Positions 13,045-48,121 of a stretch of 64,000 bases of DNA are shown here, piece by piece (position 1 is the first letter of the stretch; each line of letters starts with the position of its first letter). This DNA is from an archaeon. Its GTDB lineage: Archaea > Nanobdellota > Nanobdellia > Pacearchaeales > JAPDKA01. The translations under genes were made by a program, and so were the position numbers. The notes beneath the pieces are model-generated. The model was not told where the DNA came from and made no database searches. It saw only the letters and a list, made by a program, of their open reading frames with translations. The stretch spans positions 39,548-103,547 of the forward strand of contig JAPDKA010000008.1 in assembly GCA_029258825.1 (NCBI GenBank). Direction: 5' to 3'.

Positions 13045-13045
13045 T

Positions 13046-14245: not shown

Positions 14246-14248
14246 TTT
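14149..14248 (-). repeat. 100-nt perfect duplicate of 11138-11237
   Basis: Identical on direct comparison. Confidence 0.9.
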
Positions 14249-14263
14249 ACCTTCTATTGTTTT

Positions 14264-28788: not shown

Positions 28789-28791
28789 TTG

Positions 28792-29553
28792 ATGCTAAAA
28801 AGAGGTCAGATTTCAATTTTTGTTATAATCGCATTGATATTGGTATTTTCAACCATATTGTTTTTTCTGCTTAGACCTGTCATTTTTCGTTCAAAATTTG
28901 AGTTACCAGATTTAAATGGATATATGAAACAATGTATAGAATTAAAGTTTGGGCCAATAATTGATAATGTTAGTGCTAAAGGAGGATATCTAGAACCTCA
29001 GCTAGCAGTGATATATCATCAAATACCTAGGGCATACCTATGCTATACAACAGAGCCTTATGCAGCTTGTGAGCAGTTAGTGCCTATGTTAAAAGACCAT
29101 ATAGAATCTGAATTGAAGAGTGTTATGCAAGATAAAGCAATTGTCCAACAATGTTTGGAAGAATTTAAAGAACAAATCTCGCGTGGTGGATATGTTTTAA
29201 CATATTCTAGACCAGAAATAGATGTTAAGATAGTTCCAGAAAATGTTTTAGTATCAATTAATACTTCTGTAGTAATTAGTAGAGAAGACGAAATTACAAA
29301 GTTTAATCATTTTGATATTCAATTTAATCATCCTCTTTATGATTATATAATCATAGCAAAAAAAATAATAAGCGAATCTATAATTAATCATTATTTTGAT
29401 CCTGCATCATATATGATAATGCATCAAAGTGTTATAATTGACGAATCTTCTGTTAGTGATGGTAGTAGAGTCTATGTGATAAGAAAGAGAAACTCTAATA
29501 AGGAATTCGGCTTTGCTATAAGAAATTATGTTTTTCCAGGAGGTGTAGTGTAA
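28792..29553 (+). CDS. pilin-like protein (class-III signal peptide, RG|QISIF)
   Basis: MLKRGQISIFVIIALILVFSTILFFLL has a charged residue, G, Q at +1 and a hydrophobic helix, as in EppA/PibD substrates. The ATG lies 3 nt after the upstream stop. It ends ...FGFAIRNY, like its paralog 33188-34039. Confidence 0.7.
   Translation: MLKRGQISIFVIIALILVFSTILFFLLRPVIFRSKFELPDLNGYMKQCIELKFGPIIDNVSAKGGYLEPQLAVIYHQIPRAYLCYTTEPYAACEQLVPMLKDHIESELKSVMQDKAIVQQCLEEFKEQISRGGYVLTYSRPEIDVKIVPENVLVSINTSVVISREDEITKFNHFDIQFNHPLYDYIIIAKKIISESIINHYFDPASYMIMHQSVIIDESSVSDGSRVYVIRKRNSNKEFGFAIRNYVFPGGVV
29539..29545 (+). promoter_or_regulatory. Shine-Dalgarno-like GGAGGTG for the internal operon gene 29555
   Basis: Sits 9 nt upstream of the ATG at 29555 and is complementary to the CCUCC end of archaeal 16S rRNA. 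Confidence 0.5.
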
Positions 29554-29554
29554 A

Positions 29555-32500
29555 ATGAGAAATCGTTATACCATGCTAGAGAAAGGAAGGATTTTCGAAG
29601 CATTATTCATTATTATAGTTATATTGGTGTCAATTTTTGCTTCAGCATACTTTTTTAACCAATATGTTTCTGTTGTTCGTGCTGAAGAAGTGGGTTGTTG
29701 TGTTCAAAAAGAAGGTTTAAGTGGTTATTATTGTCAAGATCAAACTGATAGCGAAGGTTGTAGCTCTTATGTTGGGAGGTCTTGCTCTGAAGTCTATGAG
29801 TGTCAGCTTGGTTGTTGTATAGATTCTGAAGGTTTACCTACACCAAACACCCATAGGGGTGACTGTACTGGTGTTTTTATAGAGGAGGACCCTTATTGTG
29901 AAACTGTTCAGCTTGGTTGTTGTGTTTATGGTGTTAATGCTGAGTTAACGACAGAGCAGAGATGTGTAGATATACTACACGGGAGCTGGCATGGAGATAT
30001 TACAGATCAGATAGAATGCTTTAGCCAAATTGAAGGTGCAGATCGTGGTACTTGTAGATTGGCTACGAGGTGTGCGTACGTTACTCAGGAAGAATGCGAA
30101 GAGCTTGGTGGTTTTGATTTTGTTCCTGGATTAAAACCTATAGATGATCCTAACTGTAACTGCGAGATTGTAGATGATAAAGGAAAATGTATAGACGGTC
30201 TTCAACATGTTTACGAATACGATACTTGTGGCAATGTTTATCCTGACAGGATTCGTAATGAGTGCAATTCGGATGAGTGGTGTATAGATGATGAATGTCA
30301 GTCTACAGACTGTACTAATGTATATGATAACTGGAACGAGTCTAACCAGGGCTTTACAGGGAAGCCAGGTAACCATGGTAAAACCCGTCATCACGGAGAG
30401 TCATGGTGTGTTTATGATATTCCTGATAGAACTTTTTACTACACTCCTATTGGCGGGCTTGACCCTGTTGGAAGTGAACATTGGTTGGCTAAATGTTTGT
30501 ATGGTAAGGTTTATGTTTCGCCACCACCACAGCCATATAGACAGTACATATGTTTTGAAACACTTATCGATGCTGATACAGGGGAAATAGCAAAAGAAGA
30601 TGGTACTCCTATTATGAGGGATAAGAGATATAAAAACAACAACTATAGGTCATTTGCGTTTTGGGTGCTCAACCCGTGGAGAGAGTGCTATTTAATCCAG
30701 GATGAAGAGCAATGCAGAGAACATCCTTGGTGTTACTGGGTTACTGACTTGAATTACAGTGCAGGATTTTTGACAGAGGATAAAGACAATGATATAGCAA
30801 AATGGTTCGGGATTAAGGATGAAAGTTTGGAAAAAATAACAGGTTTTCCAGGATCTGAAATACTTGGCATAGACGAAATCGCAGCTCCAGTTAGATGCTT
30901 GCCTAGGGTTGCACCAGGTTTTGACGAGAACGGTAAAGTTCTATGCGATCTCGCCACAGTACAGTGTACTCTTGAAGATCGATTGATAGGCGATACAAAC
31001 CCTGAATGTGATGATGCTCCTTGGATTGAGTTAATGGCACAAAGATGTAGGGCAATGGGTGATTGCGGTCCTAACATGAATTGGTTAGGAAAGGTTAGCG
31101 ATCCTGCATGGGAGAACAGTATCCTTGCAGCTGAAATCAATCCAGAAAAAGACGATGCAGGCAACATAATTGGAAAGGATATAGAAGGATTGTGGGATCT
31201 AAAGGAGGGAGATGATTTTAAAAAGATTCAAGCTTCTGCTGGAGAGAGGGGCTGGGGGAGAAAGATTGCTACTGGTGTAGGAAAGTTTCTTCTTGTCCCT
31301 GCAGGTTGGCTTGCTGGTGTGGCTAGTGTGGTGGTAGAGGCTGTTGCCATAGCTAACATCCCGTTTGCTGCTTTTAATAAAGGTTTTCTTTGGAAATCTT
31401 TATCTTTTTCTACAACTGGAGCTATTGTGGCAGTCGCTGGACTTATAGTTTATCTCGTTGGTTGTTACTTGACTAATCATGGTTGGCGTGTTGTCGGAGA
31501 AACGTTGAAATCTATAGGTGTAGGTATGATGGCTGGAGGGTTGGCAGTTGCTTTGGGTGCAAGTGGCCCAGTAGGTTGGGCTGTAGGAATAGCAGCTGCT
31601 GTGATTTATGCTGTATTTTTTGCTACTTGGGATGTTGACCATGTTGTTGTTAAATGTGCTGGTTGGGTTCCTCCTTATAGTGGTGAAGACTGTAGCAAAT
31701 GTAATGACGATCCATATAGGCCTTGCTCAAAGTACAGATGCGAATCTTTGGGTGCAGCATGCAAGTTTGTTAATGAGGTTGGGGGCATACCATTAGCTGA
31801 TAGTGATGCTGTGTGCGTATCAGAAGAAAACGATGGCCAGCCTCCTTACATTGTAGAGATATCTGCAGAAGATGATGTGGGAAATAGTCTCGATGTGAGT
31901 CCAAGCACAACATCAGGACCAACAACAATTAATGTTCAAGCTAGTGATGGCGGAGACTTAGATCCTGGTGTTCCTGTGATTCTTCATATGAAATTTAACG
32001 AAAGAGTTCTTTGTAAATGGGACATAACAGAAAAGGACAGCATGGAGGATATGGCTTTTTCTGTTGATGGTAGGTTTAGCAATGAGAAAACATTGCTACT
32101 TGGTACAAGTCCGTTAAGGGTAAACCAACAAGTTTTCCTAAGATGTGCAGATGTTTATGGAAACGAAAATAGTGCAAGTTATATCATAAAATTTGATGTA
32201 AAGGATGTTTCATACGATATATTTCCACCAAGAATATTAGCTACCAACCCTCCAGATGGTGCTTATATAGGTTTTGATAAAAACAAAATAGATGTGTTAG
32301 TTTATCTCAACAGGCCTGCAGAGTGTAAATGGGCAAATTCAGATATGTCTTATGATGATATGACAACTGAAAAGTGCACTACAGAGCCTGCCATGGCAGG
32401 ATTAATATGTAACCTTACAAATGTAGATGTTAGTAGTGAAATTAACAATATCTACATAAGATGTAAATCTTCAGATGCAGGAGAAACGGCACCAACTTCA

Positions 32501-33061
32501 TTGAAAGTTATAACTTTAAGAAAAGCGCCACCAATACAGATTGTTAACATAGAACCTAATGACACGACGGTTTATCTTGGTCCCGACAATATGGCAGTAG
32601 AGTTAACTGTTCATACAGCTGGAGGTATTGATAATACCGGTACAAGCGTTTGTTATTATTTAACCGATTCAGACAAGGTTCCTTTTGATACGACGGGAAC
32701 TAACTTACATAAAACCCTTGTTCCTGTTGAGGAAGGAAAAAATGACATTACTGTGTCTTGCTGCTTATATAGCTCTTGCGTTGATGCTCATGCGGTATTT
32801 AATGTTCAACTAGATACTGTGCCACCTAAAATAAAAGCTATTTACAAGGAAGATAATAAATTAATTGTTAAAACAGACGAAATTGCGGAGTGCAAATACA
32901 GTACAGAAAGTTGTGAAGCAGTAGCAAACGGCGAAACAATGGTTACAAGTTTGGGTTTAGTTCATTCTATCTCTTTAAGTACAGGAATGGATACTTATTA
33001 TATTCAATGTAAAGACAAATATAACAATCAAGGAGAATGTGTTTCTGTTAAGGTGGTGTAA
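29555..33061 (+). CDS. giant cysteine-rich membrane/surface protein (1168 aa)
   Basis: N-terminal hydrophobic helix after EKG|RIFEA. Then GCC-type Cys modules, a Gly/Ala-rich block of about 4 helices (about nt 31265-31625), a Cys knot CSKC...C...CESLGAACKF, and 4 C-terminal modules of the EC[KR][WY]...Y[IV][KR]C type. Confidence 0.85.
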   Translation: MRNRYTMLEKGRIFEALFIIIVILVSIFASAYFFNQYVSVVRAEEVGCCVQKEGLSGYYCQDQTDSEGCSSYVGRSCSEVYECQLGCCIDSEGLPTPNTHRGDCTGVFIEEDPYCETVQLGCCVYGVNAELTTEQRCVDILHGSWHGDITDQIECFSQIEGADRGTCRLATRCAYVTQEECEELGGFDFVPGLKPIDDPNCNCEIVDDKGKCIDGLQHVYEYDTCGNVYPDRIRNECNSDEWCIDDECQSTDCTNVYDNWNESNQGFTGKPGNHGKTRHHGESWCVYDIPDRTFYYTPIGGLDPVGSEHWLAKCLYGKVYVSPPPQPYRQYICFETLIDADTGEIAKEDGTPIMRDKRYKNNNYRSFAFWVLNPWRECYLIQDEEQCREHPWCYWVTDLNYSAGFLTEDKDNDIAKWFGIKDESLEKITGFPGSEILGIDEIAAPVRCLPRVAPGFDENGKVLCDLATVQCTLEDRLIGDTNPECDDAPWIELMAQRCRAMGDCGPNMNWLGKVSDPAWENSILAAEINPEKDDAGNIIGKDIEGLWDLKEGDDFKKIQASAGERGWGRKIATGVGKFLLVPAGWLAGVASVVVEAVAIANIPFAAFNKGFLWKSLSFSTTGAIVAVAGLIVYLVGCYLTNHGWRVVGETLKSIGVGMMAGGLAVALGASGPVGWAVGIAAAVIYAVFFATWDVDHVVVKCAGWVPPYSGEDCSKCNDDPYRPCSKYRCESLGAACKFVNEVGGIPLADSDAVCVSEENDGQPPYIVEISAEDDVGNSLDVSPSTTSGPTTINVQASDGGDLDPGVPVILHMKFNERVLCKWDITEKDSMEDMAFSVDGRFSNEKTLLLGTSPLRVNQQVFLRCADVYGNENSASYIIKFDVKDVSYDIFPPRILATNPPDGAYIGFDKNKIDVLVYLNRPAECKWANSDMSYDDMTTEKCTTEPAMAGLICNLTNVDVSSEINNIYIRCKSSDAGETAPTSLKVITLRKAPPIQIVNIEPNDTTVYLGPDNMAVELTVHTAGGIDNTGTSVCYYLTDSDKVPFDTTGTNLHKTLVPVEEGKNDITVSCCLYSSCVDAHAVFNVQLDTVPPKIKAIYKEDNKLIVKTDEIAECKYSTESCEAVANGETMVTSLGLVHSISLSTGMDTYYIQCKDKYNNQGECVSVKVV

Positions 33062-33187
33062 ATTTGAAATCAAATTTATTTTTCTTACTAACACCTCTTT
33101 TTTTAATCATTGCTTACTTAACAAATTGAGAGTTTATAAAATTAATGACACAAAAAGTTTTATAAATCTAAAAATAGTATCATCAGT

Positions 33188-34039
33188 ATGCTATTTAATG
33201 CTAAAAGAGGTAACACTAAAGCACAGATTGCTGTTTGGGTTATCGTTGCCGCTGTCATTGTTGTTGCTGGGCTTATTACTTATGCTGTAAAACCCGACTT
33301 GTTTAGGGTAGGATTTAGCAAGCAAAAAGCAAGTCAGATTCTCGAAACTCAAGCAAGCAACTTGCAGGACGCTATTGCTTACTGTGTTGAGCAAGCAGCA
33401 AAATACTGCTTTGATAAGCTTGGCAAGCATGCAGGTTATTACAACTATGATTTTCTTTCAACAATTCACTATGCTGACAGCGATAAAGTTGTTGTGATGT
33501 ATAAAGATGCAAAAGCAAACCGCATAAACAAGTTGCCTTCGCTTGAACAAATTTTAAACAGAGAATTTCAAGCATGCATGGATGCTGAAGGTTGGGAAAT
33601 GATTGACACATGTGTTGATTTCCGTAAATATCAACGTTATTTTAGCATTGCTGAATTAAAGCCAAGAAGCATAACAGCAAGCAGTGATTATGCTAACGAC
33701 GCAATAATCATCAATGTTGACTGGCCATTGCAGTTAACCAAGTTTACTTTTGCTGGTAGAGTAAGCAAGCAGATAAATCAAAAACAGGTTGTGCTTTTGC
33801 TTCCTCTTGAAAAAGTATGGAGGGTTGCTAACGATATTGTCAATTTTGAGGTTCAGCAAAAAAACTTCATTGAACATATTGAAAGCTATTTGCAAAACAA
33901 TCAAGTTGCATTAAGGCAAATAACTTTTAAAATTCAGAACTATCCTACATATATGCAAACAATATACATGATTGAAACAATTCCATATCGTTATGGTGAA
34001 GAAAAATTCAGCTTTCATTTCGCTGTAGATAGAAGTTAA
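33188..34039 (+). CDS. pilin-like protein (TKA|QIAVWVIV), paralog of 28792-29553
   Basis: MLFNAKRGNTKAQIAVWVIVAAVIVVAGL. The C-terminus ...FSFHFAVDRS parallels ...FGFAIRNY. Confidence 0.7.
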   Translation: MLFNAKRGNTKAQIAVWVIVAAVIVVAGLITYAVKPDLFRVGFSKQKASQILETQASNLQDAIAYCVEQAAKYCFDKLGKHAGYYNYDFLSTIHYADSDKVVVMYKDAKANRINKLPSLEQILNREFQACMDAEGWEMIDTCVDFRKYQRYFSIAELKPRSITASSDYANDAIIINVDWPLQLTKFTFAGRVSKQINQKQVVLLLPLEKVWRVANDIVNFEVQQKNFIEHIESYLQNNQVALRQITFKIQNYPTYMQTIYMIETIPYRYGEEKFSFHFAVDRS

Positions 34040-34040
34040 A

Positions 34041-35996
34041 ATGAAAAAAATAATGCTAGCAATGCTTGCAGCAGTGTTGCTAGTTGTAGCTAGCACTAGC
34101 TTAACAAGCTTTGTTAAGGCAGAGCAATATGGATGCTGTGTTATCACGAATGATGGGCATTACTGTGTTGACAATGCTGCTGAATCAAGCTGTCAGTCTG
34201 GCTGGTTCTTTATTGGGGCATGTGCTGATGTTTATCCTGAATGTAAGCCAGTAACATGCATAACTGAGCAGGGCAATTGTATGGATAATGTGCCTAAGCT
34301 TGTTTGCGAACATGAATATGACGGCAGTGTTGACTATACTGATAAATGCGAGAAGGGTTGCTGCATTGTTGGTAGTTACTGCGATTATGTTGAGTTTGCT
34401 AAATGCGAATATTGGGCAAGAAACTTGACAATTGATGTTTCTGAGATTGGATTTTATCCTGAAATAACCAACCAGCATGATTGCTTGTTAAAATGCAGTG
34501 CTTCTGATAGGGGAACGTGCATAAAATCTGATGGACAGTGTGTTTACACTACACGCGGTAATTGTGACGGTGAGTTTGTTGCTAATACTTATCCTTATCA
34601 AATCCCTCACTGTAATGTTGAGCATTGCGTAAGGCTTGGTTGTGGTATTATGCCAGGCGATGAAAACAAGATCTGCTGTTTCGATTCTGCTGGTAATCAG
34701 GAGGAATGCCCTGTTGCTTGCGAAGAAGGCATAAGCATATGTACTGCATGCGATGGTGAAAACTGTAATGCAAACTGCCGGGGCGAGAGAAGGGTAACTG
34801 TTGGAGGCAGTACTGACGAGTCTGATTGTTCTTTTGGTGATACTAACAACAATGAAAAACTTGACACTTTTGAGCCGTATTGTAAAAAAACACAATGTAG
34901 TTTAGAAGGAGTATTTAATCAGGAACTTACAGGGATAAATGTTACAAGAGATAAAGTTATTGTAAGCATAACAGCCTATTTCCATGGAAATGAATGGATT
35001 TCTTTGGATGATGGCCATGCAGTTTGCTCTAATATGATATATGCAAACGTTACTAAGGAGGACAGCGTATTTGTTGAATTTGATTGTAAAGATGTTAACG
35101 GAAACCCTTGTCCAAAAAATAATAATGATTTTGCTGAAGCATACAAAAACTACACAGCTTATTTAGCTGGCCGAACTACAGGGTTGCAGGCATACAAGGT
35201 TGTATGCCATAACGGTGAGCTTATATGGACAGGTTTAAGCAGTGACAGAAAACAGCTTTGCTTGAACGATGAAGAGAATATAGCAACATATCTTGTTGAG
35301 AACAATTATGAAGAGTGTGAAAAATGCGGTGTTGATACTGGTGCTGGCGGTAGGTGGCGAGACCCTCTCGGCGATTTGCTTGGAAGGGGTTTGCTTGGTG
35401 CTTGGCTTGGCCAACTTGTATCTAATCAGTGCAAGCCTGCTGATTGCAGAAACATTACTGTTAGGGCAGGAAACAAAACGATTGCTGTTTGTGATTATGC
35501 TCGCAAATTCCAGTGGAGAGGGTCGGCAACTATTGGTAGATGCGTGCCGAGGTTTGCTCCTGGTACGTCTGATTTGTGTGAAACATGCGGTGCTGGGGGC
35601 GACTGGATTAGCAACACATGTCATGCTGGTGAGTGCTACGCTTTAGGCAACTGCGAGTTTACAGAAAACAATCCAGGCATGAAGCTTTGGATCTTCACGA
35701 TACATTCACTTGGAACATTTATAAGCTCATTGTATACCACTAGTTGGATAAGGTGTATTCCGATAGCCTCTCTTGTAGAATGTGAAGGTAAAGGACTTTC
35801 AGGAAGTGGTGTCGCTTGTTTTATAGTGAAATATCCTATTTGTACATTTATTAAAGAGCCAATTGAAGTTAGTAAACCTTTATTTGATGTATTGAGTGTT
35901 GGACATAAAACAGTTAAAGGAGCGCTTAAAGATATTTGGGACGCGTTATCTACAATCGATTTCATAAAAGGGATTATGAAAAAAGCCTCAAGCTAA
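34041..35996 (+). CDS. secreted cysteine-rich protein (651 aa), paralogous to the N-half of 29555-33061
   Basis: Sec signal ending VKA|EQ. It shares with the 1168-aa protein the GCC modules, DRGTC...C.Y.T, RCVPRFAPG, and the knot CETC...C...CYALGNCEF. Its C-terminus is hydrophobic. Confidence 0.85.
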   Translation: MKKIMLAMLAAVLLVVASTSLTSFVKAEQYGCCVITNDGHYCVDNAAESSCQSGWFFIGACADVYPECKPVTCITEQGNCMDNVPKLVCEHEYDGSVDYTDKCEKGCCIVGSYCDYVEFAKCEYWARNLTIDVSEIGFYPEITNQHDCLLKCSASDRGTCIKSDGQCVYTTRGNCDGEFVANTYPYQIPHCNVEHCVRLGCGIMPGDENKICCFDSAGNQEECPVACEEGISICTACDGENCNANCRGERRVTVGGSTDESDCSFGDTNNNEKLDTFEPYCKKTQCSLEGVFNQELTGINVTRDKVIVSITAYFHGNEWISLDDGHAVCSNMIYANVTKEDSVFVEFDCKDVNGNPCPKNNNDFAEAYKNYTAYLAGRTTGLQAYKVVCHNGELIWTGLSSDRKQLCLNDEENIATYLVENNYEECEKCGVDTGAGGRWRDPLGDLLGRGLLGAWLGQLVSNQCKPADCRNITVRAGNKTIAVCDYARKFQWRGSATIGRCVPRFAPGTSDLCETCGAGGDWISNTCHAGECYALGNCEFTENNPGMKLWIFTIHSLGTFISSLYTTSWIRCIPIASLVECEGKGLSGSGVACFIVKYPICTFIKEPIEVSKPLFDVLSVGHKTVKGALKDIWDALSTIDFIKGIMKKASS

Positions 35997-36005
35997 ACAG
36001 TTAAA

Positions 36006-38717
36006 ATGAAAAAAACTTTAAAAACAAAAAATATGAAAATAGCAATGCCAAATTTAAAAAGAATCGTTTTATCGATTATTTTAGTTGCATTAGTCTTTTG
36101 GTTGTGCTGTAGTGATGTATATGCTGGGGGAGGTGGTGGAGGGTCCTCTTCTACCCAGGGTGCCACGGATACCGGGACTTGTCCTTGCAAGATTGACTAT
36201 GTTGGTATAACCCCTATTTCAAATGGAGGATCTCTTAAAGTAATTGTTAATGTTAGAGTTTCTTCTGTTAATAGCCAGCAGTGTACAAATCCTAAATTGA
36301 ATATTACAGGGACATTTACTGTTGACGGAAAGACATTTACAAGTAAAAAAATAGGACAACAAATAACAGTAGATCAAAACTCTGAAATTACTCTAAATGG
36401 GTGGGCAGACGGAAGAGCATCCTTTGACCCTTCATCTTATAAGGGGAAAACTATAAATGGTAAAGTGACAGTAAGGTTTTCCAATCCTCTACAGTGTGGT
36501 AATGTGAAGGAGGAAAGACCTTTCGTTTTTACCATTAGCGATGATGGTAAAATCACATTAACTCCTATGTTGTTACCAAATCCGGAAATATTAAAGGAAA
36601 ATCCTGAATCCGGTTTATTTACTGTTGGGAAGCTATTTACCGGTATAGGTTACATTTGTTGTTTTGGCGCTACTGGTTATGGTCCTTTTACTTCATGGAT
36701 AAAGCAATTAAAGGAAAACCTTAAGAATCGAGGCGAGAAAGCAACAGAAGAACAATTAATTAATAGGTTATTGAACCTAAACTGTGACAACGAAAATGTT
36801 TTAAAAGCTAATGGATGGAGCAAGGAAGATTGTTTGACAGCTAAAGAATATGCTGAAAGAGCAAAAGAATATAAAGAAAAATATGAAAAAAGATGTGGTC
36901 CAAAAGAAAAATGGTATAGTGGATTGAAGGGTAGTGTTCATATGATAACATGCATTATTTCTATCGGGTACTCAGTTTCAGAAGGAATACTTCTAGCATC
37001 GCACTCAGGCTCATGTCACCCAGAACAACCGTTGCCGGGAACAGAGCATTGTGAAGCATGCAATGCTTATGGTCTTTGCTTGAAGGAGCGATGTGAAGTG
37101 CTCGGCCACTGTAAGTTTGTGCCTTTCGAAGACAAAACAGGCGGCTTATGCTTGCCAGATGTTTGCGAACCTACAGCAGTGCCTGTAATTGAAGACATAT
37201 CAACACGCTGGTTTGTTGACAGAGCAAGGGAAATTACTGACGATCTAGATATAAGTACTAGTTCAAAAGCAGGCGGTGTACAGGTTGTTGTTAGTTATGA
37301 TGGCACTGATGTTGATCCTGAAGGAGCACTACCTTTCGGTGTGTCAGATGTTGAAATAACGTTAAAGCTTAACCAGGGTGCAAGGTGTAGATATGCTATT
37401 GATCAGCCAGGCCTCAATTTCAGCGAAATGCCTTATGAATTTGATAATGCTTATCTTTATCCAAAAGAGCAGACAGCACGCATTGATTTAACAAGCCTAA
37501 CGCCGGGCATGAACCATACAATATACATAAAGTGTCAAGGTATTTGCGGACAGGCGCACGAAGCAACGTTTGACTGGAATTATGTTACATTCACAAAATC
37601 GAACAAGCCTGACGAGTTGCCTCCTGAAGTCATGTACGTTGTTCCTGATGGCTACAGACAGTACATAAGCAGTACTGCTAAAAAACAAACAATCAAGTTT
37701 TATTTTGATGAAAGTCTTGATGAATGTAGAATTTCAACCATAGCAAACAACTTAACCGAGGAGTGGGGTGAAATGAACTCAGAGCAATCTCCTCCAGAAT
37801 GCGTAACTCAATTTACTTGCACAAACAACCAACCTTGCTATGTTCGAACACCAGAAGGTTATGTCACAGAAAGCGAGAGACACGATTGCGGAATGTGCGA
37901 AGTTACAGTTAAGCTTACTCCTGAATGCAAAGACAAGGTTTACACTGTGATAGACTGGGATAACCTTACAAGTATGCTTGAAAGTGCGTCTGAAACAAAC
38001 GAGACAATAGCAAGAATGCTTGAACGCTTTAGCTATACTGAGAGAATGCAGCAGCTGGGCCTAACAGGACAAAGCAAGATTGTACAGTTAATGCTCAAAT
38101 GTGAAGACACTCATTACAACAGAATGCAAGAAGCTTACGCATACATGATAAGCACTTACCCACCATACAACATGTCTATTGTGTTGCCTGAGAATGGTTA
38201 TGACACTTTTGATAGACAAATCTTGATTAATGTGACCACAACAAGAGCTGCAGAATGCAGATACAGCTTGAATGAACAAAAAATCTGGGAAGAAATGACA
38301 CCAATTAGTGAGGGCTTCGATGTTGTGCATGTTGGCATGACAGAATGGCTAGAACCTGGCGACTATACATTGTATGTTAAATGTCGCGATATAGGCGGCC
38401 TTGAAGTTGGCGATAGCGTGCAATTCAAAATAAAACCTGACAACACACCACCAACCATTATAAGAATGTTTGCAAGAAGTAACAATCTTGTTATTGAAAC
38501 AGATGAACAATCAACATGCTACTTCAATATTGATGATGAAGTTGGTTGCAACTTTAATGTTGATGATGTTGAAAGCTTTAGCACAGTGAATGGTTATACG
38601 CATATCGCACCACTTAACGATGATTGGACATATTATGTTAAGTGCAAAGACAGGTTTGATAATATGCCAGCTGGATGTACTGCAGTGATTAGAGCTGCTC
38701 AATTGCCGCGTGGTTAA
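36006..38717 (+). CDS. large surface protein (903 aa), paralogous to the C-half of 29555-33061
   Basis: Signal/anchor then a Gly6-Ser3 linker. Two hydrophobic segments, the knot CEAC...C...CEVLGHCKF, four EC[RK]Y...Y[IV]KC modules, and a DNTPPTI...TDEQSTC terminal module matching DTVPPKI...TDEIAEC. Confidence 0.85.
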   Translation: MKKTLKTKNMKIAMPNLKRIVLSIILVALVFWLCCSDVYAGGGGGGSSSTQGATDTGTCPCKIDYVGITPISNGGSLKVIVNVRVSSVNSQQCTNPKLNITGTFTVDGKTFTSKKIGQQITVDQNSEITLNGWADGRASFDPSSYKGKTINGKVTVRFSNPLQCGNVKEERPFVFTISDDGKITLTPMLLPNPEILKENPESGLFTVGKLFTGIGYICCFGATGYGPFTSWIKQLKENLKNRGEKATEEQLINRLLNLNCDNENVLKANGWSKEDCLTAKEYAERAKEYKEKYEKRCGPKEKWYSGLKGSVHMITCIISIGYSVSEGILLASHSGSCHPEQPLPGTEHCEACNAYGLCLKERCEVLGHCKFVPFEDKTGGLCLPDVCEPTAVPVIEDISTRWFVDRAREITDDLDISTSSKAGGVQVVVSYDGTDVDPEGALPFGVSDVEITLKLNQGARCRYAIDQPGLNFSEMPYEFDNAYLYPKEQTARIDLTSLTPGMNHTIYIKCQGICGQAHEATFDWNYVTFTKSNKPDELPPEVMYVVPDGYRQYISSTAKKQTIKFYFDESLDECRISTIANNLTEEWGEMNSEQSPPECVTQFTCTNNQPCYVRTPEGYVTESERHDCGMCEVTVKLTPECKDKVYTVIDWDNLTSMLESASETNETIARMLERFSYTERMQQLGLTGQSKIVQLMLKCEDTHYNRMQEAYAYMISTYPPYNMSIVLPENGYDTFDRQILINVTTTRAAECRYSLNEQKIWEEMTPISEGFDVVHVGMTEWLEPGDYTLYVKCRDIGGLEVGDSVQFKIKPDNTPPTIIRMFARSNNLVIETDEQSTCYFNIDDEVGCNFNVDDVESFSTVNGYTHIAPLNDDWTYYVKCKDRFDNMPAGCTAVIRAAQLPRG

Positions 38718-40189: not shown

Positions 40190-40705
40190 ATGGTAAAACC
40201 AAAGAAGAAAGCACAGATATTCGGCATGCCTTTCACGTTTTTGTTTGCTTTAATACTAATTGCCGTGTTTTTGTTTACAGCAATCTGGGCGATCAGACAT
40301 TTTTTGCATACAACAGAGTACACAAAACTGATGACAAGCATAAATGATTTAAGAACACAAGTACAAACATTATGGCAGCAACGGGCAGGCAGAGTAACAG
40401 TAACATTGCTTTTTCCGAAAAGCTTTGAAAAAATTTGTTTTGCCGATCCTAATGATAAATCTGGCTGGGCTCAAGAATCAGATTTAAGACAAGACTACAA
40501 TTGGGTTAACAATGTAAAAGCAAACTTGTTTTTACTGCCTCGCAAGGCAGCGCTTGATTTTGGTTTGAAAGGTTACCTGTTCATTGGTTGTGGTAATGTT
40601 GACTGTCTTGACTTTAACAATCCAACTTGCATAACTATTAAGAATGGCAAAGTTAGGTTAAGGCTGACAATGCAGGATGATAAAGTATGGGTTGAAGAAG
40701 CTTAA
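40190..40705 (+). CDS. pilin-like protein (KKA|QIFGMPF)
   Basis: MVKPKKKAQIFGMPFTFLFALILIAVFLF. Confidence 0.65.
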   Translation: MVKPKKKAQIFGMPFTFLFALILIAVFLFTAIWAIRHFLHTTEYTKLMTSINDLRTQVQTLWQQRAGRVTVTLLFPKSFEKICFADPNDKSGWAQESDLRQDYNWVNNVKANLFLLPRKAALDFGLKGYLFIGCGNVDCLDFNNPTCITIKNGKVRLRLTMQDDKVWVEEA

Positions 40706-40783
40706 ACATTTTTGCTTTTTATTGTTTTTTGTTGGTTTGTTGTTTTTCGTTAAATTAATAAATATGTGGATAATGCTATTTAC

Positions 40784-41239
40784 ATGGATGAAAAAAGTAA
40801 AAAAGAGGTGATACAAAAAAATGTTGAGATGCTTATCAGTGACGATTTCTTTAATGCTTTATGGAGAGAATCTGTAGGAGGTAATGCTGGTGAAAACTGC
40901 GCCTGTGTTAATGCAATAGTTGACAAGCGTACAGGTGAAATAGTTGATTTTTCGAACCAACCTATAAAAGATTGGTTAAATACAAAAGCAAAGAGAAAAG
41001 GTATAAAAGGAGAGGCAGAAAATTATGATAAAGCAAGTATAATTGTTGATCTTTCTTACACTAGTAAGGAAAAATTATTTAGCACGAACATTGAAGATTG
41101 TTATCCAAAGATTACCAAGCTTGTTGGTGCTAAAAATTATGAAAGCTTGAAACGTGCTGTTGAAAAGGCGAATGAAATATACAGAAGCAAAATTGGAGGG
41201 CAAGTTAAAAAACTAAGAGAAGAAGCTTATAAAAAATAA
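40784..41239 (+). CDS. soluble hypothetical protein inside the pilin-like gene run
   Basis: ORF with no signal or TM. I prefer the ATG at 40784 over the GTG at 40766 given in the track. Confidence 0.45.
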   Translation: MDEKSKKEVIQKNVEMLISDDFFNALWRESVGGNAGENCACVNAIVDKRTGEIVDFSNQPIKDWLNTKAKRKGIKGEAENYDKASIIVDLSYTSKEKLFSTNIEDCYPKITKLVGAKNYESLKRAVEKANEIYRSKIGGQVKKLREEAYKK

Positions 41240-41256
41240 AATGACTCTCTAATAGA

Positions 41257-42231
41257 ATGTATAAACAAAAGCAGAAAAACGCACAGATGCCTGCATTTGG
41301 TTGGCTGTTTTCTGTAATCATTGGTGCTTTCATTTTGTTTTTTGCTTTCTTATTTGTGTTTCGTTTTACACATATCGCTGAACAGCAAGAACAAGCAGTA
41401 ACCACAACAAGCCTTGACATCTTGCTAGAGCCGTTTGCAAGCAGCATTGCAACAGGCCAATCAGACATAATAACACTGCCACGCAATTCAAAGCTTGAAA
41501 TTGATTGTTCTTATTCTGATTTTGATTTTGGCAAAAATATTGTTAAATACTCGACTACTGGTCAATTTAGATTCAGCAAAGTAGTGCGGGATAAATACAT
41601 ATTTGCTAGACCAATACAAAAACGCAACATACTTGTTGTAGTGTTGCCTTTTGAAATGCCGTTCCGTATTGCTGATTTAACTTTACTAATTGGTCATGAT
41701 TACTGCTTTGTAGGATTGCCAGAGCGTTATAAAGATTTACTTCAGGAGTTAACTGAAACGAATGCTGATGCCGCAAACATCAGGCTGGAATTTTTTAGCG
41801 ATGTTAATGACTGTAGTGAAGATTCGATAAAAGTTTGTAAAGACAACCTCAATTGTGATGTTTCTTTCACTTGTGCTGATGGTTGTAGTTATGGCACTAT
41901 AAGTTATGGCAATAATGATAAGCAATACTTGTGGTATGGCAACTTGTTGCTTGCTGCTGCATTTTCAGAGCCAGAACTTTATGAATGCAATGCCAACAGG
42001 TTGTTGAAGAGGGCAAAGCTAATTGCTAGCATCTACAAAACCGAAGCATCAATGCTGTCAAGTAAAGGTTGCAGTAGCATATCCGGACTAAGCTCGCAGC
42101 TTGATAGGTATATTACTCAGCTTAATAACATTGATATTAGTGATACCAGCACAAGTAGTTTTGCTTCATTACATGACACAGCCAAAACCATAGACCACAT
42201 TAATGGTTTTGCTTTGTGTAAAATCTACTAG
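41257..42231 (+). CDS. pilin-like protein, 324 aa (KNA|QMPAFGW)
   Basis: MYKQKQKNAQMPAFGWLFSVIIGAFILFFAFLFVF. The body is Cys-containing and looks extracellular. Confidence 0.65.
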   Translation: MYKQKQKNAQMPAFGWLFSVIIGAFILFFAFLFVFRFTHIAEQQEQAVTTTSLDILLEPFASSIATGQSDIITLPRNSKLEIDCSYSDFDFGKNIVKYSTTGQFRFSKVVRDKYIFARPIQKRNILVVVLPFEMPFRIADLTLLIGHDYCFVGLPERYKDLLQELTETNADAANIRLEFFSDVNDCSEDSIKVCKDNLNCDVSFTCADGCSYGTISYGNNDKQYLWYGNLLLAAAFSEPELYECNANRLLKRAKLIASIYKTEASMLSSKGCSSISGLSSQLDRYITQLNNIDISDTSTSSFASLHDTAKTIDHINGFALCKIY

Positions 42232-42234: not shown

Positions 42235-42771
42235 ATGAAAATAAAAATCAAGCATCAAGAAAAAGTACGGAAAGCACAAATTCAAATCCAGGAAATGGCG
42301 TTTGTGCTAGTAGGACTTTTTTTGCTTTTTGCGTTTGCTTTTCTTGGTTTTGCCGCATGGCAAACATCACTCATGAAACAACAAGCAACAAGCTTAAGGC
42401 TAGAAAAAGCAACTGTAATGATAAACAGCTTAATAAGTATGCCAGAACTTGCATGCAGCAAACAATTAGGCTATTGTATCGATGAAGACAAACTTGTTTT
42501 GTTTAAATCCTACATAGATAAGTACGAGCTCTTATTTAAATCTGCCCGAATAAATTACATTGCTGTAAAGCGCATATTTCCGAAAATTGAAGATAGTGTT
42601 GAATGTAATTCAGATAATTATCCAAATTGCAATTTGCATGTGCTTTATAACAAGCAAGACGAAGATACAATAATTCATTCAAGCTTTGCTGTTTTGTGCC
42701 ATTACGATATGTTTACTGGCAATAGATGTGATATTGCTGAAGTTTTAGTTGGCATAAAACCTGAAACATAA
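42235..42771 (+). CDS. pilin-like protein (RKA|QIQIQEMAFVLVG)
   Basis: Basic leader, KAQ, then a hydrophobic helix. Starts 3 nt after the upstream stop. Confidence 0.65.
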   Translation: MKIKIKHQEKVRKAQIQIQEMAFVLVGLFLLFAFAFLGFAAWQTSLMKQQATSLRLEKATVMINSLISMPELACSKQLGYCIDEDKLVLFKSYIDKYELLFKSARINYIAVKRIFPKIEDSVECNSDNYPNCNLHVLYNKQDEDTIIHSSFAVLCHYDMFTGNRCDIAEVLVGIKPET

Positions 42772-42772: not shown

Positions 42773-43306
42773 ATGAAAATAAAAAATAAAGCAAAAATGG
42801 ATAAATCAAAGCACAAAGCAAAACATACAAGAAAGGCACAGCAAGAAATTTTCGGGTTTGTGATTATCGTGATGCTTATTCTTGTTATAGCTGTTATTTT
42901 CTTTGGCTTAGCATTGCAAAGAGCGATCAACAATCCGACTTATGAACAATACCAGAAAGCCAATGATTTGTTGTTTGTTATGATGCACTACACAACAGAT
43001 TGCAAAAATAAAGAGTTAAGCAGAGTTATTGAATTATGTATTAGCGGTGACACATGTAAAATTGAAGGCAATGAAATTAGTGCATGTGATTATATGCGGG
43101 ATGTATTTTCAGAAATACTTAATGTTACATTAGGCAATGAAACACAATTGCTGAACAGGCCAATACATGGTTATTGGTTTAGGATTAATGATGGTGAACT
43201 GCTAAATATTTCTGCTGGCAACTTATCAGGCAATATTGCAGTTGGCTATTATGTAGTGCCCCTTACAGAAGGTAGCGTAACAGCAGAACTTTGGCTCTAC
43301 TATTAA
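42773..43306 (+). CDS. pilin-like protein (RKA|QQEIFGFVIIV)
   Basis: Basic leader, KAQ, then a hydrophobic helix. Starts 1 nt after the upstream stop. Confidence 0.65.
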   Translation: MKIKNKAKMDKSKHKAKHTRKAQQEIFGFVIIVMLILVIAVIFFGLALQRAINNPTYEQYQKANDLLFVMMHYTTDCKNKELSRVIELCISGDTCKIEGNEISACDYMRDVFSEILNVTLGNETQLLNRPIHGYWFRINDGELLNISAGNLSGNIAVGYYVVPLTEGSVTAELWLYY

Positions 43307-43336: not shown

Positions 43337-43735
43337 CTAAATCAATTGTTGCTTTTTTAACCTTGTTATTGCTTGGTTTTGCCAAAGTTTTTTATAAAAA
43401 TAAAAATAATAACTTAATTCTGTTTTATCTTTTACATATACAGGGATGTTGTTATTTATTACTTCAATTTTCATGTACAAAGGCATGATTTCAAAAATTC
43501 TTATATCATATCTTTCATTTTTTCCCGATATCTTTAACATTTCAGGAATTATTTGTTTTATTTTTTCTTTATCATTATCACCAACAACTATGCAAATATC
43601 TACATCACTTTTTTCACTTTGCTCGTTACTTGCATAGGAACCATAAATCAATACAGCTAACACTTTATCAAATAAATGCGTGAACTCTTGTTTTATTTTT
43701 TCTTTTAATTTTTCTAATTCTTTATTATGATTCAT
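43337..43735 (-). CDS. mntA: minimal nucleotidyltransferase (MNT) antitoxin
   Basis: YGSYASNEQSEKSDVDICIV matches the GS...DxD pol-beta NTase motif. Overlaps the HEPN gene by 4 nt. Confidence 0.8.
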   Translation of the reverse strand: MNHNKELEKLKEKIKQEFTHLFDKVLAVLIYGSYASNEQSEKSDVDICIVVGDNDKEKIKQIIPEMLKISGKNERYDIRIFEIMPLYMKIEVINNNIPVYVKDKTELSYYFYFYKKLWQNQAITRLKKQQLI

Positions 43736-47957: not shown

Positions 47958-48121
47958 TTTCCACCTCTTTTTTAACTATTTTGACTTTTATCAATAAAAA
48001 TGTTTTGGTTTTTTATTTTTCAGAAATCGTTAATGGAAACATTTAAAAACTAGCCAATGTTAAAATTAACGCTAATGCTGATGCCTGGGAAGGGTATTTG
48101 CTTTTTTATTTTGTTTTGAAA

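What the first reader, a model, noticed from the sequence alone, without database searches (positions are those of the whole stretch)
29555..38717. Three giant paralogs related by fusion or fission and sharing a conserved Cys knot
The 1168-aa protein shares its N-half with the 651-aa protein: GCC modules, DRGTC-x5-C-x-Y-x-T, and RC[LV]PR[VF]APG. It shares its C-half with the 903-aa protein: four EC[KR][WY]...M...Y[IV][KR]C-x-D modules and a terminal D-[TN]-[VT]-PP-x-I...TDE-x-x-x-C module. The 651- and 903-aa genes are adjacent with a 9-nt gap, so together they look like a split version of the 1168-aa gene, or the 1168-aa gene is a fusion of the two. All three carry the motif C-x2-C-x(5-10)-C-x(3,4)-C-x2-LG-x(1,2)-C-[KE]-F (nt about 31691-31776, 35575-35659, 37050-37118) next to Gly/Ala-rich hydrophobic segments. 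The 1168-aa protein has a second, degenerate copy of the motif before its hydrophobic block of about 4 helices (about 31265-31625).
Basis: seen in the sequence. Interest (0 to 1): 0.65.

Follow-up and report, generated by a model that had tools for sequence, protein, structure and literature searches.

The report
Split and fused giant archaeal surface proteins
The three large cysteine-rich genes are two ancient copies, one whole and one split in two, of an undescribed envelope protein family found across Woese-/Pacearchaeota (DPANN archaea), and they sit in a conserved gene cluster with five pilin-like proteins that probably builds a cell-surface contact structure.

Summary
The 1168-aa protein (A) shares its N-half with the 651-aa protein (B) (BLASTP 9e-16, profile 3.7e-15). 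It shares its C-half with the 903-aa protein (C) (1e-11, profile 2.8e-32).

This is not a local accident. A profile of the family finds 2288 protein clusters at E<=1e-30. A genome scan finds 479 loci, and the 80 best are almost all labelled Woese-, Pace- or Nanoarchaeota.

In related loci the gene order is conserved: ~260-aa prepilin-like gene, full-length giant, second ~260-aa gene, N-half gene, C-half gene, then four small prepilin-like genes. Of 55 loci with enough flank, 34 carry the split second copy and 11 carry it fused. Fused second copies group with the split halves, not with the first copy. So B+C are a split second paralogue.

No Pfam, NCBIfam or PDB sequence match exists. The C-half is four Ig-like sandwiches. 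The N-half model (pLDDT 76) matches no known fold and no fusogen.

The likely role is a membrane-anchored surface adhesin or scaffold working with pilin-like partners. That role is inferred, not shown.

The parts
28789..29553 (+). 254-aa prepilin-like partner gene ('P260' family) that precedes paralogue 1. N-terminus is MMLKRG|QISIFVIIALILV.
   Evidence: 37% identical to the gene preceding the homologue in L001 (E=4e-56). The family is present in 82 of 83 loci and directly precedes 81 FULL and 55 N-half genes, never a C-half gene. It has a conserved [KR][GA]|Q[VI]TIF motif, with Q at +1 in 95% of members.
29555..33061 (+). Paralogue 1, full-length giant (A, 1168 aa, 5.1% Cys). Order of parts: anchor helix, Cys-rich ectodomain, membrane block, Cys motif, four Ig-like modules.
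   Evidence: covers HMM positions 2-1107.
29687..31090 (+). A aa 45-512: disulfide-rich N-half ectodomain with about 36 conserved Cys. It includes three GCC modules, DRGTC, NGESWC.YD, RCLPRVAPG and the terminal C.[SA].GDCG motif.
   Evidence: Invariant columns. AF2 model has pLDDT 76. No fold match in PDB (best E=1.3) or in BFVD (best E=0.33).
31253..31639 (+). A aa 567-695: Gly/Ala-rich, Cys-poor hydrophobic block of about four transmembrane helices.
   Evidence: Kyte-Doolittle segments at 575-608, 614-642, 651-684 and 669-699. AF2 helices at 567-599, 620-641, 645-667 and 671-690. Family medians are 14.7% G, 13.5% A and 0.6% C in the block, against 7.0%, 4.8% and 6.0% elsewhere.
31655..31816 (+). 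A aa 701-754: post-membrane 'Cys knot'. Family consensus is F.C.PW.PP.GG.DC.KCN.DP..PC..YRC.SLG.AC, with seven invariant Cys.
   Evidence: pLDDT is 81-88.
31844..33058 (+). A aa 764-1168: four Ig-like beta-sandwich modules, each with an EC[KR][WY] ... Y[IV][KR]C.D Cys pair.
   Evidence: AF2 pLDDT is about 80-90. Foldseek hits are multi-Ig/FN3 ectodomains at E about 1e-13. No Pfam hit.
33188..34039 (+). 283-aa second P260-family prepilin-like gene, preceding the N-half gene. N-terminus contains KAQ|IAVWVIVAAVIVV.
   Evidence: Matches the P260 profile at E=7.8e-45 (P0175). Weak direct match to the 254-aa copy.
34041..35996 (+). Paralogue 2, N-half gene (B, 651 aa, 8.1% Cys). It has a Sec-type signal peptide (..FVKA|EQ). 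Its Cys motif lies at aa 501-539 (nt 35541-35657).
   Evidence: HMM 48-291; no clear TM besides the signal peptide.
36006..38717 (+). Paralogue 2, C-half gene (C, 903 aa). Parts in order: signal/anchor, an extra beta-rich domain (about aa 58-190), two weak hydrophobic segments (204-222, 313-331) around a charged 80-aa loop, the Cys knot (aa 336-372, nt 37011-37121), and four Ig-like modules.
   Evidence: E=2.8e-32; HMM 638-1106; knot 8.8e-7. No close relative found in the 5.8-billion-protein search.
40190..40705 (+). 171-aa small prepilin-like protein (S171 family). N-terminus contains KKKA|QIFGMPFTF.
   Evidence: Orthologue of the L002 196-aa gene (1e-14). Conserved position after the C-half gene. 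Motif statistics.
41257..42231 (+). 324-aa prepilin-like protein (S324 family).
   Evidence: Orthologue of the L002 312-aa gene (4e-35). Conserved order.
42235..42771 (+). 178-aa prepilin-like protein (S178 family). N-terminus contains RKA|QIQIQEMAFVL.
   Evidence: Match at 1e-24. Q at +1 in 26 of 26 members with the motif.
42773..43306 (+). 177-aa prepilin-like protein (S177 family). N-terminus contains RKA|QQEIFGF.
   Evidence: Match at 3e-9. K[AG]|QEE..GF conserved in 26 of 26 members with the motif.

Best explanation
The three ORFs are two ancient paralogues of one large, undescribed family of ~1200-aa envelope proteins typical of Woese-/Pacearchaeota (GTDB Nanoarchaeota, DPANN).

Paralogue 1 (A) is in one piece. 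Its parts, in order:
- a basic N-terminal tail and an anchor helix;
- a ~470-aa disulfide-rich ectodomain of unknown fold;
- a Gly/Ala-rich block of about four membrane helices, bracketed by two small Cys motifs;
- four Ig-like sandwiches ending in a free C-terminus.

Paralogue 2 is split at the border between the ectodomain and the membrane block. B is a secreted N-half. C is a membrane-anchored C-half.

Both paralogues belong to a conserved cluster. Each gene that carries an N-half is preceded by a ~260-aa protein with a prepilin-type (class III) signal peptide. Four further small prepilin-like genes follow in fixed order.

Proposed working: both Cys-rich halves face outward. The even number of helices in the block and the Cys-poor composition of the block fit this topology. 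The giants would act as membrane-anchored adhesin or scaffold subunits. They would work with a short pilin-like fibre or tip complex made of the five prepilin-like proteins. The closest analogy is four minor pilins plus PilY1 in bacterial type IV pili. The structure would mediate cell-to-cell or cell-to-surface contact in these presumed episymbionts.

Shown: homology, the split/fused relationship, cluster conservation, Ig-like fold of the C-half, topology signals.
Inferred: cleavage by a prepilin peptidase, physical association of the parts, adhesion as the function.

Confidence is about 0.9 for identity and evolutionary history and about 0.35-0.4 for the mechanism.
For: Homology within the window.

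Family size and taxonomy:
- 36 mostly ~1200-aa hypothetical proteins in the first search.
- 6173 clusters at E<=1e-3, 3629 at <=1e-10 and 2288 at <=1e-30 in the representative library.
- 479 loci in species-representative genomes. The 80 best are nearly all labelled Woese-, Pace- or Nanoarchaeota.

Cluster conservation:
- The L002 locus has the same order as the window, and each small gene is orthologous.
- The pattern P260-FULL-P260-NHALF-CHALF-S171-S324-S178-S177 recurs across 83 loci.
- Of 55 informative loci, 34 are split, 11 have a fused second copy and 3 have a single copy. P260 precedes 81 FULL and 55 N-half genes and never a C-half gene. N-half genes end at HMM position about 489 and C-half genes start at about 567.
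- The first copies group with each other. Fused second copies group with the split halves.

Prepilin-type N-termini: [KR][GA]|Q followed by a hydrophobic helix, with Q at +1 in 90-100% of members that carry the motif in four of the five small families.

Structure and topology:
- Ig-like C-half.
- Membrane block rich in G and A and poor in C.
- N-half genes carry Sec signal peptides.

Envelope context:
- An S-layer gene (PF05124) follows the cluster in L058, L069 and L073.
- A DsbA-like gene lies nearby in the window.
- Archaeal type IV filament loci often carry large Ig-fold adhesin-like proteins (bioRxiv 10.64898/2026.04.22.720090).
- PilY1 plus four minor pilins form a priming/tip complex in bacteria (PMC7541494, listed; the content is from my own knowledge).
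Against: - No Pfam or NCBIfam pilin model matches the small proteins: one marginal Pilin_N hit among 59 members.
- No type IV filament ATPase, platform protein or prepilin peptidase was found in the ORFs scanned, which cover most but not all of the 64-kb window. I did not classify the unlabelled flanking ORFs of the related loci.
- A four-helix membrane block is unlike known pilus-tip adhesins, which are soluble, and would keep the giant in the membrane.
- Near-universal presence next to PCNA and S-layer genes fits a housekeeping envelope role at least as well as adhesion.
- No expression data: only DNA runs hold this sequence.
- In this window the membrane block of the split copy is degenerate, with C having two weak segments and B none.
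- The AF2 model has low confidence in the membrane block, and pTM is 0.48.
Confidence: 0.5

Rival explanations
1. Housekeeping envelope scaffold. The giants would be structural components of the cell wall, for example anchors or spacers that hold or pattern the S-layer above the membrane. The pilin-like proteins would be further envelope subunits. Adhesion to a host would not be the primary job.
For: - The family is very widespread in the clade.
- The cluster position is fixed next to PCNA, and in some genomes directly upstream of an S-layer gene (PF05124).
- A string of four Ig-like domains is typical of archaeal S-layer and stalk proteins (the comparison is from my own knowledge of SlaB-type and Ig-rich S-layer proteins).
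- Two stable paralogues with fixed order suggest a stoichiometric structure.
Against: - No hit to S-layer models in A, B or C.
- Sequences diverge fast: A is at most 39% identical to its best homologue, and C has no hit at all. This is more usual for host-facing proteins.
- S-layer adjacency was confirmed in only 3 loci (5 candidates found).
Confidence: 0.25
2. Membrane-active conduit. The Gly/Ala-rich helices would oligomerise as glycine-zipper bundles into a pore or fusion-like device. The two ectodomains would dock this device onto a host membrane to move lipids, metabolites or DNA.
For: - The block has 14.7% G, 13.5% A and a median of 23 [GAS]xxx[GAS] motifs, with conserved Gly positions.
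- The block is bracketed on both sides by conserved Cys motifs at the membrane surface.
- The organisms are expected to depend on hosts (Castelle et al. 2021, PMC8204110).
Against: - No structural similarity of either half to any fusogen or pore-former in PDB or BFVD.
- The block reads as an ordinary even-numbered TM bundle in the producer's own membrane.
- It is poorly conserved in sequence and is degenerate in this window's split copy.
- Small-xxx-small motifs are common in any tightly packed helical bundle.
Confidence: 0.1
3. Recent local gene break. B and C would be the two pieces of a gene disrupted in this genome, a decaying duplicate of A with no separate function.
For: - B and C are only 9 nt apart.
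- They are much more diverged than typical family members. B matches only HMM positions 48-291, and C has no database homologue.
Against: - The same split occurs in 34 of 55 informative loci from many species, with the break always between HMM positions about 489 and 567.
- Each half has its own targeting signal.
- Intact ORFs of 651 and 903 codons in a 33-40% GC genome do not persist without selection.
Confidence: 0.03
4. The shared motifs are a compositional coincidence of Cys-rich sequence, or the modules are ordinary members of a described Ig/PKD family.
For: - High Cys content: 4.1-8.1%.
- One marginal Y_Y_Y hit in C (E=0.015, below the cut-off).
Against: - Composition-adjusted BLASTP and profile E-values run from 1e-11 down to 2.8e-32 over hundreds of collinear residues.
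- No Pfam, NCBIfam or PDB sequence hit for the family profile.
Confidence: 0.02

Closest known systems
Bacterial type IV pilus priming/tip complex: four minor pilins (FimU/PilV/PilW/PilX or GspH-K) plus the large adhesin PilY1/PilC (Treuner-Lange et al. 2020, PMC7541494)
   Same: A fixed set of four small proteins with prepilin-type N-termini is encoded in a row next to one or more very large secreted surface proteins. An extra pilin-like protein (P260) is paired with the large protein.
   Different: - No sequence or fold similarity to PilY1: no significant beta-propeller match.
- The giants carry a four-helix membrane block.
- No assembly ATPase or platform gene was found among the window ORFs scanned.
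- The organism is an archaeon.
- The pilin assignment rests on the N-terminal motif only.
Archaeal type IV filament loci with large Ig-fold 'adhesin-like' proteins (arCOG05616, arCOG07037 and a PilY-like adhesin; bioRxiv 10.64898/2026.04.22.720090)
   Same: Class III signal peptide proteins sit next to large multi-Ig-fold proteins in archaea. A proposed role in attachment or envelope passage.
   Different: - Those loci are defined by an ATPase and a platform protein, which were not found near this cluster.
- That survey does not describe this cluster, as far as the passages I read show.
- The Cys-rich N-half and the membrane block have no counterpart there.
Multi-Ig/FN3 cell-adhesion ectodomains (PTP-delta, contactins, titin I-band; also the Aureispira grappling-hook protein GhpA)
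   Same: The C-half is a string of four beta-sandwich domains (Foldseek E about 1e-13 to 1e-10).
   Different: - Sequence identity is 9-13% and TM-scores are low (0.1-0.3), so the match is a generic fold match to repeated domains.
- No Pfam Ig, FN3, PKD or Big model matches.
Giant DPANN surface proteins, e.g. SPEARE proteins of Ca. Nanohaloarchaeum antarcticus (Hamm et al. 2019, PMC6642349) and the murein-transglycosylase giants of Woese-/Pacearchaeota (Castelle et al. 2021, PMC8204110)
   Same: Large, lineage-restricted, extracellular or membrane proteins of DPANN archaea, suspected to mediate host interaction. The literature records many DPANN-specific membrane or extracellular families without annotation.
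   Different: - No shared domains.
- This family has no enzymatic domain.
- It is much more uniform in length and architecture.
- It comes as a fused-plus-split paralogue pair inside a pilin-like cluster.
Fusexins / HAP2-type class II fusogens (archaeal Fsx1)
   Same: Cys-rich beta-rich ectodomain followed by membrane helices in an archaeal protein.
   Different: No fold match to any fusogen in PDB or in the viral structure library. The membrane block here lies in the middle of the protein, between two ectodomains.

Membership tests
Type IV pilin-like proteins (class III signal peptide), for the five small partner families | Short basic N-terminus, [KR]-[GA] cleavage motif, then a hydrophobic helix of about 20 aa | tested here: met
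   Motif plus helix found in 130 of 151 P260, 31 of 35 S171, 28 of 33 S324, 26 of 30 S178 and 26 of 29 S177 members. Q at +1 in 90-100% of those in four of the five families.
Type IV pilin-like proteins (class III signal peptide) | Match to a curated pilin or class III signal model (Pfam Pilin_N, Class_IIIsignal; NCBIfam) | tested here: not met
   No hits for the window proteins. One marginal Pilin_N hit (E=0.036) among 59 members and none among 26 P260 members.
Type IV pilin-like proteins (class III signal peptide) | Cleavage by a prepilin peptidase and assembly by a type IV filament ATPase and platform | not testable with these tools
   None of these genes was found among the window ORFs scanned, which cover most of the window. 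The whole genome is not available to me.
Ig-like / FN3 / PKD adhesin domain families, for the C-half modules | Beta-sandwich fold | tested here: met
   AF2 pLDDT is 80-90 over aa 760-1168. Foldseek hits to multi-Ig/FN3 chains at E about 1e-13.
Ig-like / FN3 / PKD adhesin domain families | Sequence match to a described family model | tested here: not met
   No Pfam hit for A or B. C has only Y_Y_Y at 15.6 bits, below the 26.6-bit cut-off. No NCBIfam or PDB profile hit.
Class II fusogens / fusexins | Three-domain beta-rich ectodomain fold detectable by structure comparison | tested here: not met
   N-half model (pLDDT 76): best PDB match E=1.3, best viral match E=0.33. The full-length model hits only Ig strings.
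PilY1/PilC-type pilus tip adhesins | C-terminal beta-propeller domain | tested here: not met
   No significant propeller match. Henipavirus attachment glycoprotein hits (Langya, Mojiang virus; chains I know to be beta-propellers) have E=2.6-5.4 and probability 0.01.
Archaeal S-layer proteins (PF05123/PF05124) | Match to S-layer N/outer domain models | tested here: not met
   None in A, B or C. The model does match the gene downstream of the cluster in L058, L069 and L073.
Cystine-knot domains (growth-factor or inhibitor type), as implied by the name 'Cys knot' | Three disulfides with one threading the ring formed by the other two | not testable with these tools
The motif has seven invariant Cys, and no structural neighbour was reported.
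The family itself (undescribed ~1200-aa Woese-/Pacearchaeota giant) | Collinear match to the family profile: N-half (NGESWC.YD, C.PKYP.GF, C.S.GDCG), then membrane block, then F.C.PW.PP..DC.KCN...YRC.SLG.AC, then four EC[KR]Y/Y[IV][KR]C.D modules | tested here: met
   A covers HMM positions 2-1107, B covers 48-291 and C covers 638-1106.

The most novel reading that the evidence does not exclude
The cluster would encode a previously unseen, clade-wide host-contact machine of Woese-/Pacearchaeota. A short type-IV-pilin-like fibre (P260 plus four minor-pilin-like proteins) would present or position a hetero-oligomer of the fused and split giants. Their glycine-rich helices would form the membrane-embedded core of the intercellular junction or conduit through which these reduced archaea draw on their hosts.
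Probability: 0.12. Interest if true: 0.9.

Novelty: new variant of a known kind. Interest (0 to 1): 0.62.

Why it matters
Woese- and Pacearchaeota are abundant, uncultured, reduced-genome archaea. How they attach to and exploit other cells is unknown, and published surveys only note that their lineage-specific membrane and extracellular families lack annotation (PMC8204110).

This finding isolates one such set of genes with several useful properties:
- It is very widespread: 2288 clusters at E<=1e-30 and 479 loci in species representatives.
- Its composition and order are fixed.
- It gives testable parts: five prepilin-like proteins and two giant paralogues, one of them naturally split at a domain border. 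The natural split tells an experimenter where the protein can be cut for expression.
- Its ectodomain has a fold with no known relative.

This makes the envelope and host-contact biology of the clade directly approachable. It is also a clean natural example of a gene kept side by side in fused and split form across many species.

Tried and rejected
- Pfam, NCBIfam and a PDB sequence-profile search of A, B, C and the partner proteins gave nothing above noise.
- Homologue search with C alone found only itself.
- Homologue search with the P260 profile found 15 unannotated proteins.
- Foldseek of the full-length model returned only generic Ig strings.
- Foldseek of the N-half against PDB and viral structures gave no match at E<0.3, so the fusogen, viral glycoprotein and propeller ideas were dropped.
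- The test of whether the two Cys motifs flanking the membrane block are duplicates gave only a 6-column C.SLG match (probability 2.9%), so duplication is not shown.
- Assigning B's Cys motif to one of the two was inconclusive: 6.0 bits against 1.5 bits.
- The search for a type IV filament ATPase, platform protein or peptidase found none among the window ORFs scanned.
- The search for RNA evidence found only DNA runs, from a hydrothermal-vent metagenome.
- Four literature searches found no description of this cluster.
- The 10-15.7 kb minus-strand genes with extreme GC skew looked like possible partners but are an unrelated repeat-protein set.
- The profile of alignment A1 had 1223 positions, over the limit for the representative search, so I used the 1110-position profile of A2.
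Full report
**1. What is in the sequence**

The region holds three long + strand ORFs:
- A: 29555-33061, 1168 aa.
- B: 34041-35996, 651 aa.
- C: 36006-38717, 903 aa.

B and C are 9 nt apart. The window is a low-GC (about 33%) archaeal genome, with PCNA, deoxyhypusine synthase, diphthamide synthase and archaeal ATPase_2/DUF234 genes. Its DNA is found in a hydrothermal-vent metagenome.

The proteins are Cys-rich: A 5.1%, B 8.1%, C 4.1%.

**2.

- BLASTP with composition adjustment aligns A12-204 to B3-194 (27% identity, E=9e-16), plus RCLPRVAPG to RCVPRFAPG.
- It aligns A711-925 to C347-575 (E=1e-11) and A988-1158 to C707-886 (E=2e-8).
- B and C share only the Cys motif (E=0.029).
- Against a profile of 25 full-length homologues, B25-412 matches columns 70-404 (E=3.7e-15) and C334-900 matches columns 741-1229 (E=2.8e-32).

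The similarity is therefore homology and not composition.

The Cys motif C-x2-C-x5-10-C-x4-C-x5-6-C-[KE]F is at A713-738, B512-539 and C349-371, as stated. The hydrophobic block is A575-695.

- The 'degenerate second copy' in A (aa 464-504) shares only a C.SLG core with the main motif.
- B's motif directly follows RCVPRFAPG, which is where the N-half ends in the family. It scores only 6 bits against the post-membrane motif model and 1.5 bits against the N-half terminal motif model.

**3. The family**

- A finds 36 proteins, nearly all 1150-1350 aa, all 'hypothetical', none with a Pfam domain apart from one Y_Y_Y entry. Where named, they come from Pacearchaeota or uncultured archaea.
- A profile search of 1.84 billion representatives gives 6173 clusters at E<=1e-3, 3629 at <=1e-10 and 2288 at <=1e-30. 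The top 150 are almost all full-length.
- A scan of species-representative genomes for the motif [NHE]GESWCxY[DE] finds 479 confirmed loci. The best 80 are labelled Woesearchaeota, Pacearchaeota, Nanoarchaeota or Nanoarchaeia, with one 'Bathyarchaeota', one 'bacterium' and a few plain 'archaeon' or 'uncultured archaeon' records.
- No Pfam, NCBIfam or PDB sequence relative exists.

**4. Architecture of the full-length protein**

The alignment shows about 36 conserved Cys in the N-half, seven in the post-membrane motif and paired Cys in each C-terminal module.

AF2 on the full-length protein gives mean pLDDT 70.6. It predicts:
- an N-terminal helix;
- a mixed beta/alpha N-half;
- four long helices at 567-690 with low confidence;
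- a small alpha/beta Cys domain at 693-756 (pLDDT 81-88);
- four beta-sandwich domains (pLDDT about 80-90).

Foldseek matches the C-half to multi-Ig/FN3 ectodomains (E about 1e-13, identity 9-13%). This is a generic fold match.

A separate model of the N-half (aa 40-560, pLDDT 76) has no match in PDB (best E=1.3) or in the viral structure library (best E=0.33). It is an unrecognised fold and shows no resemblance to fusogens.

Across 57 full-length relatives, the stretch between the two Cys motifs is a median of 221 aa long. Its core has 14.7% Gly, 13.5% Ala and 0.6% Cys, against 7.0%, 4.8% and 6.0% in the rest of the protein.

An even number of helices, Cys-rich flanks and a Cys-poor core point to one topology: both halves outside, the block in the membrane. 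This is an inference.

**5. The gene cluster**

The homologue P0016 lies in a locus (L002) with this order: PCNA, a 260-aa gene, the 1213-aa giant, a 252-aa gene, a 502-aa N-half-only gene, a 712-aa C-half-only gene, then four small genes.

The window has the same order:
- 254 aa, A, 283 aa, B, C;
- an inserted ATPase_2/DUF234 gene;
- 171 aa, a window-only 157-aa ORF, 324 aa, 178 aa, 177 aa.

Each small gene is orthologous between the two loci, with E from 3e-9 to 4e-35. The 283-aa protein is the exception: it did not hit its L002 counterpart by BLASTP and was placed in the P260 family by profile (7.8e-45).

I called ORFs in 83 loci and classified them with HMMs:
- 100 full-length, 59 N-half and 35 C-half genes.
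- The ~260-aa family (P260) is in 82 of 83 loci.
- It directly precedes 81 full-length and 55 N-half genes, and never a C-half gene.

Among 55 loci with at least 8 kb downstream:
- 34 have the first copy plus a split second copy;
- 7 have an N-half with the C-half out of reach;
- 11 have a fused second copy;
- 3 have a single copy.

N-half genes end at HMM position about 489, just after the C.S.GDCG motif. C-half genes start at about 567, at the membrane block.

**6. Fusion or fission**

I looked at nearest neighbours in other loci:
- First copies group with first copies (188 of 213 for the C part).
- Fused second copies group with other fused second copies and with the split halves.
- The split halves group with each other and with fused second copies.

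So there are two old paralogues. The first is always fused. The second is fused in some genomes and split in most. Because both paralogues share the full collinear architecture, duplication of a fused gene followed by fission of the second copy is the simplest history. I have not built a tree to count the events.

The split is not a plain cut:
- N-half genes carry ordinary Sec signal peptides.
- C-half genes carry an N-terminal helix with a mid-helix E/Q (29 of 35) and an [AS]F[ASGT][YFW] motif (20 of 35). Full-length proteins show the same features (79 of 99 and 42 of 99). N-half genes almost never show the second motif (1 of 59).

In this window the split copy is unusually diverged:
- B matches only HMM positions 48-291.
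- C has no database homologue at E<=1e-3.
- C has an extra N-terminal beta-rich domain and only two weak hydrophobic segments.
- B has no clear hydrophobic segment after its signal peptide.

**7. The small partners look like prepilins**

All five small families begin with a basic stretch, then [KR][GA], then usually Q, then a hydrophobic helix:
- P260: [KR][GA]|Q[VI]TIF, with Q at +1 in 95%.
- S171: [KR][GA]|Q, with Q at +1 in 90%.
- S178: K[AG]|Q[LM]KIQQMAF, with Q at +1 in 100%.
- S177: K[AG]|QEE..GF, with Q at +1 in 100%.
- S324: [KR]G followed by a helix of the form F.W.F.

This is the pattern of archaeal class III signal peptides. From my own knowledge, Q at +1 is typical of substrates of the EppA-type peptidase.

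No curated pilin model matches them. No filament ATPase, platform protein or peptidase gene was found among the window ORFs scanned, which cover most but not all of the window. The pilin assignment therefore rests on the motif alone.

**8. Envelope context**

- In L058, L069 and L073 the gene after the last small gene is an S-layer protein (PF05124, E from 1e-15 to 4e-4).
- The window also has a DsbA/GILT-like protein at 48098-49576, a candidate catalyst for extracytoplasmic disulfides.
- Upstream of the cluster lies a fourth Cys-rich, membrane-anchored protein at 26299-28788. Its relatives occur in 35 related loci.

**9. Mechanism**

My best reading is that the giants are membrane-anchored, outward-facing adhesin or scaffold proteins. 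They would work with a short pilin-like fibre or tip complex made by P260 and the four small proteins.

The nearest analogy is the four minor pilins plus PilY1 of bacterial type IV pili. A second analogy is the archaeal type IV filament loci that carry large Ig-fold adhesin-like proteins.

P260 pairs strictly with N-half-bearing genes, which suggests it binds or presents the Cys-rich ectodomain. In the split copy the secreted N-half must be held by a partner, either P260 or the C-half.

All of this is inference. What is shown is homology, conservation, fold class and targeting signals.

Rival readings:
- A housekeeping envelope or S-layer scaffold (0.25).
- A glycine-zipper conduit or fusion device (0.1). 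No fold support, and the block is degenerate here.
- A recent local gene break (0.03).
- Compositional coincidence (0.02).

**10. Novelty**

Four literature searches found no description of the family or the cluster. The closest statement is that Pacearchaeota have lineage-specific modules of unannotated membrane or extracellular families (PMC8204110).

I rate it a new variant of a known kind: a pilin-associated surface adhesin system. It has three unusual features:
- an ectodomain of unknown fold;
- a mid-protein membrane block;
- a conserved pair of one fused and one split paralogue.

**Limits**

- ORFs in related loci were called by my own script as maximal ORFs, so N-termini may be over-extended.
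- Only the 80 best of 479 loci were examined.
- The nearest-neighbour analysis is not a phylogeny.
- AF2 confidence is moderate, and domain packing is unreliable (pTM 0.48).
- No expression or protein data exist for this sequence.

Noticed in passing
window 23556-23812 and 39902-40158: A 257-nt direct repeat at 92% identity forms the 3' ends of two ATPase_2/DUF234 genes (22359-23819 and 38786-40165). A third paralogue lies at 23892-25289. The 38786 copy sits inside the otherwise conserved cluster, between the C-half gene and the first small prepilin-like gene. The repeat pair brackets about 16.3 kb that includes all three giants.
   Followed up: partly
window 26299-28788 (+): An 829-aa Cys-rich (7.1%) protein with a signal peptide, about eight 'C..GG.C...CC' repeats, a TM helix at aa 656-685, and a cytoplasmic tail that is first Q/P/M-rich and then K-rich. 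HMM relatives occur in 35 of 83 related loci, usually upstream on the opposite strand. No Pfam hit.
   Followed up: partly
related loci L058:9308-11572, L069:16930-19449, L073:20197-22479: The gene directly after the last small prepilin-like gene is an S-layer protein (PF05124 S_layer_C). The window has a HepT-like/nucleotidyltransferase pair at that position instead.
   Followed up: yes
related loci and window 29591-29656: The N-terminal helices of full-length and C-half genes share a basic tail, a mid-helix E/Q and an [AS]F[ASGT][YFW] motif. N-half genes instead have plain Sec signal peptides. The split therefore redistributed targeting signals rather than simply cutting the gene. Many of these helices are preceded by [KR]G, which is faintly prepilin-like.
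   Followed up: partly
window 10086-15700 (-): Four genes of 478, 399, 605 and 382 aa. The 399- and 382-aa proteins share an identical first ~30 residues and tandem 'NQVIG[VI].I.G' repeats, and they flank the 605-aa gene. This stretch has the strongest GC skew in the window (-0.46). It is unrelated to the finding.
   Followed up: no
window 43337-44151 (-): A nucleotidyltransferase (Polbeta/NTP_transf_2) and HepT-like RNase pair, which is a HEPN/MNT-type toxin-antitoxin module, lies immediately downstream of the cluster.
   Followed up: no
window 48098-49576 (+): A 492-aa protein with weak DsbA-like and GILT thioredoxin-fold hits. It is a candidate extracytoplasmic disulfide oxidoreductase that could serve the many Cys-rich surface proteins nearby.
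   Followed up: no
window 4049-4552 (-): A YkuD L,D-transpeptidase catalytic domain protein (E=7e-17) in an archaeal genome. This is a bacterial cell-wall enzyme type, and it recalls reports of murein-directed enzymes in Woese-/Pacearchaeota (PMC8204110).
   Followed up: no
window 40766-41239 (+): A 157-aa GTG-start ORF without a hydrophobic N-terminus lies between two of the small prepilin-like genes. It has no counterpart in any of the 82 related loci, so it is either a window-specific insertion or not a real gene.
   Followed up: partly
related loci, e.g. L006, L007, L031, L033, L036, L039, L081: In about a dozen loci one or two extra ORFs of about 160-290 aa lie between the N-half and C-half genes. 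The median gap is 634 nt and the maximum is 5.4 kb. I did not classify these ORFs. In the window the two genes are 9 nt apart.
   Followed up: no
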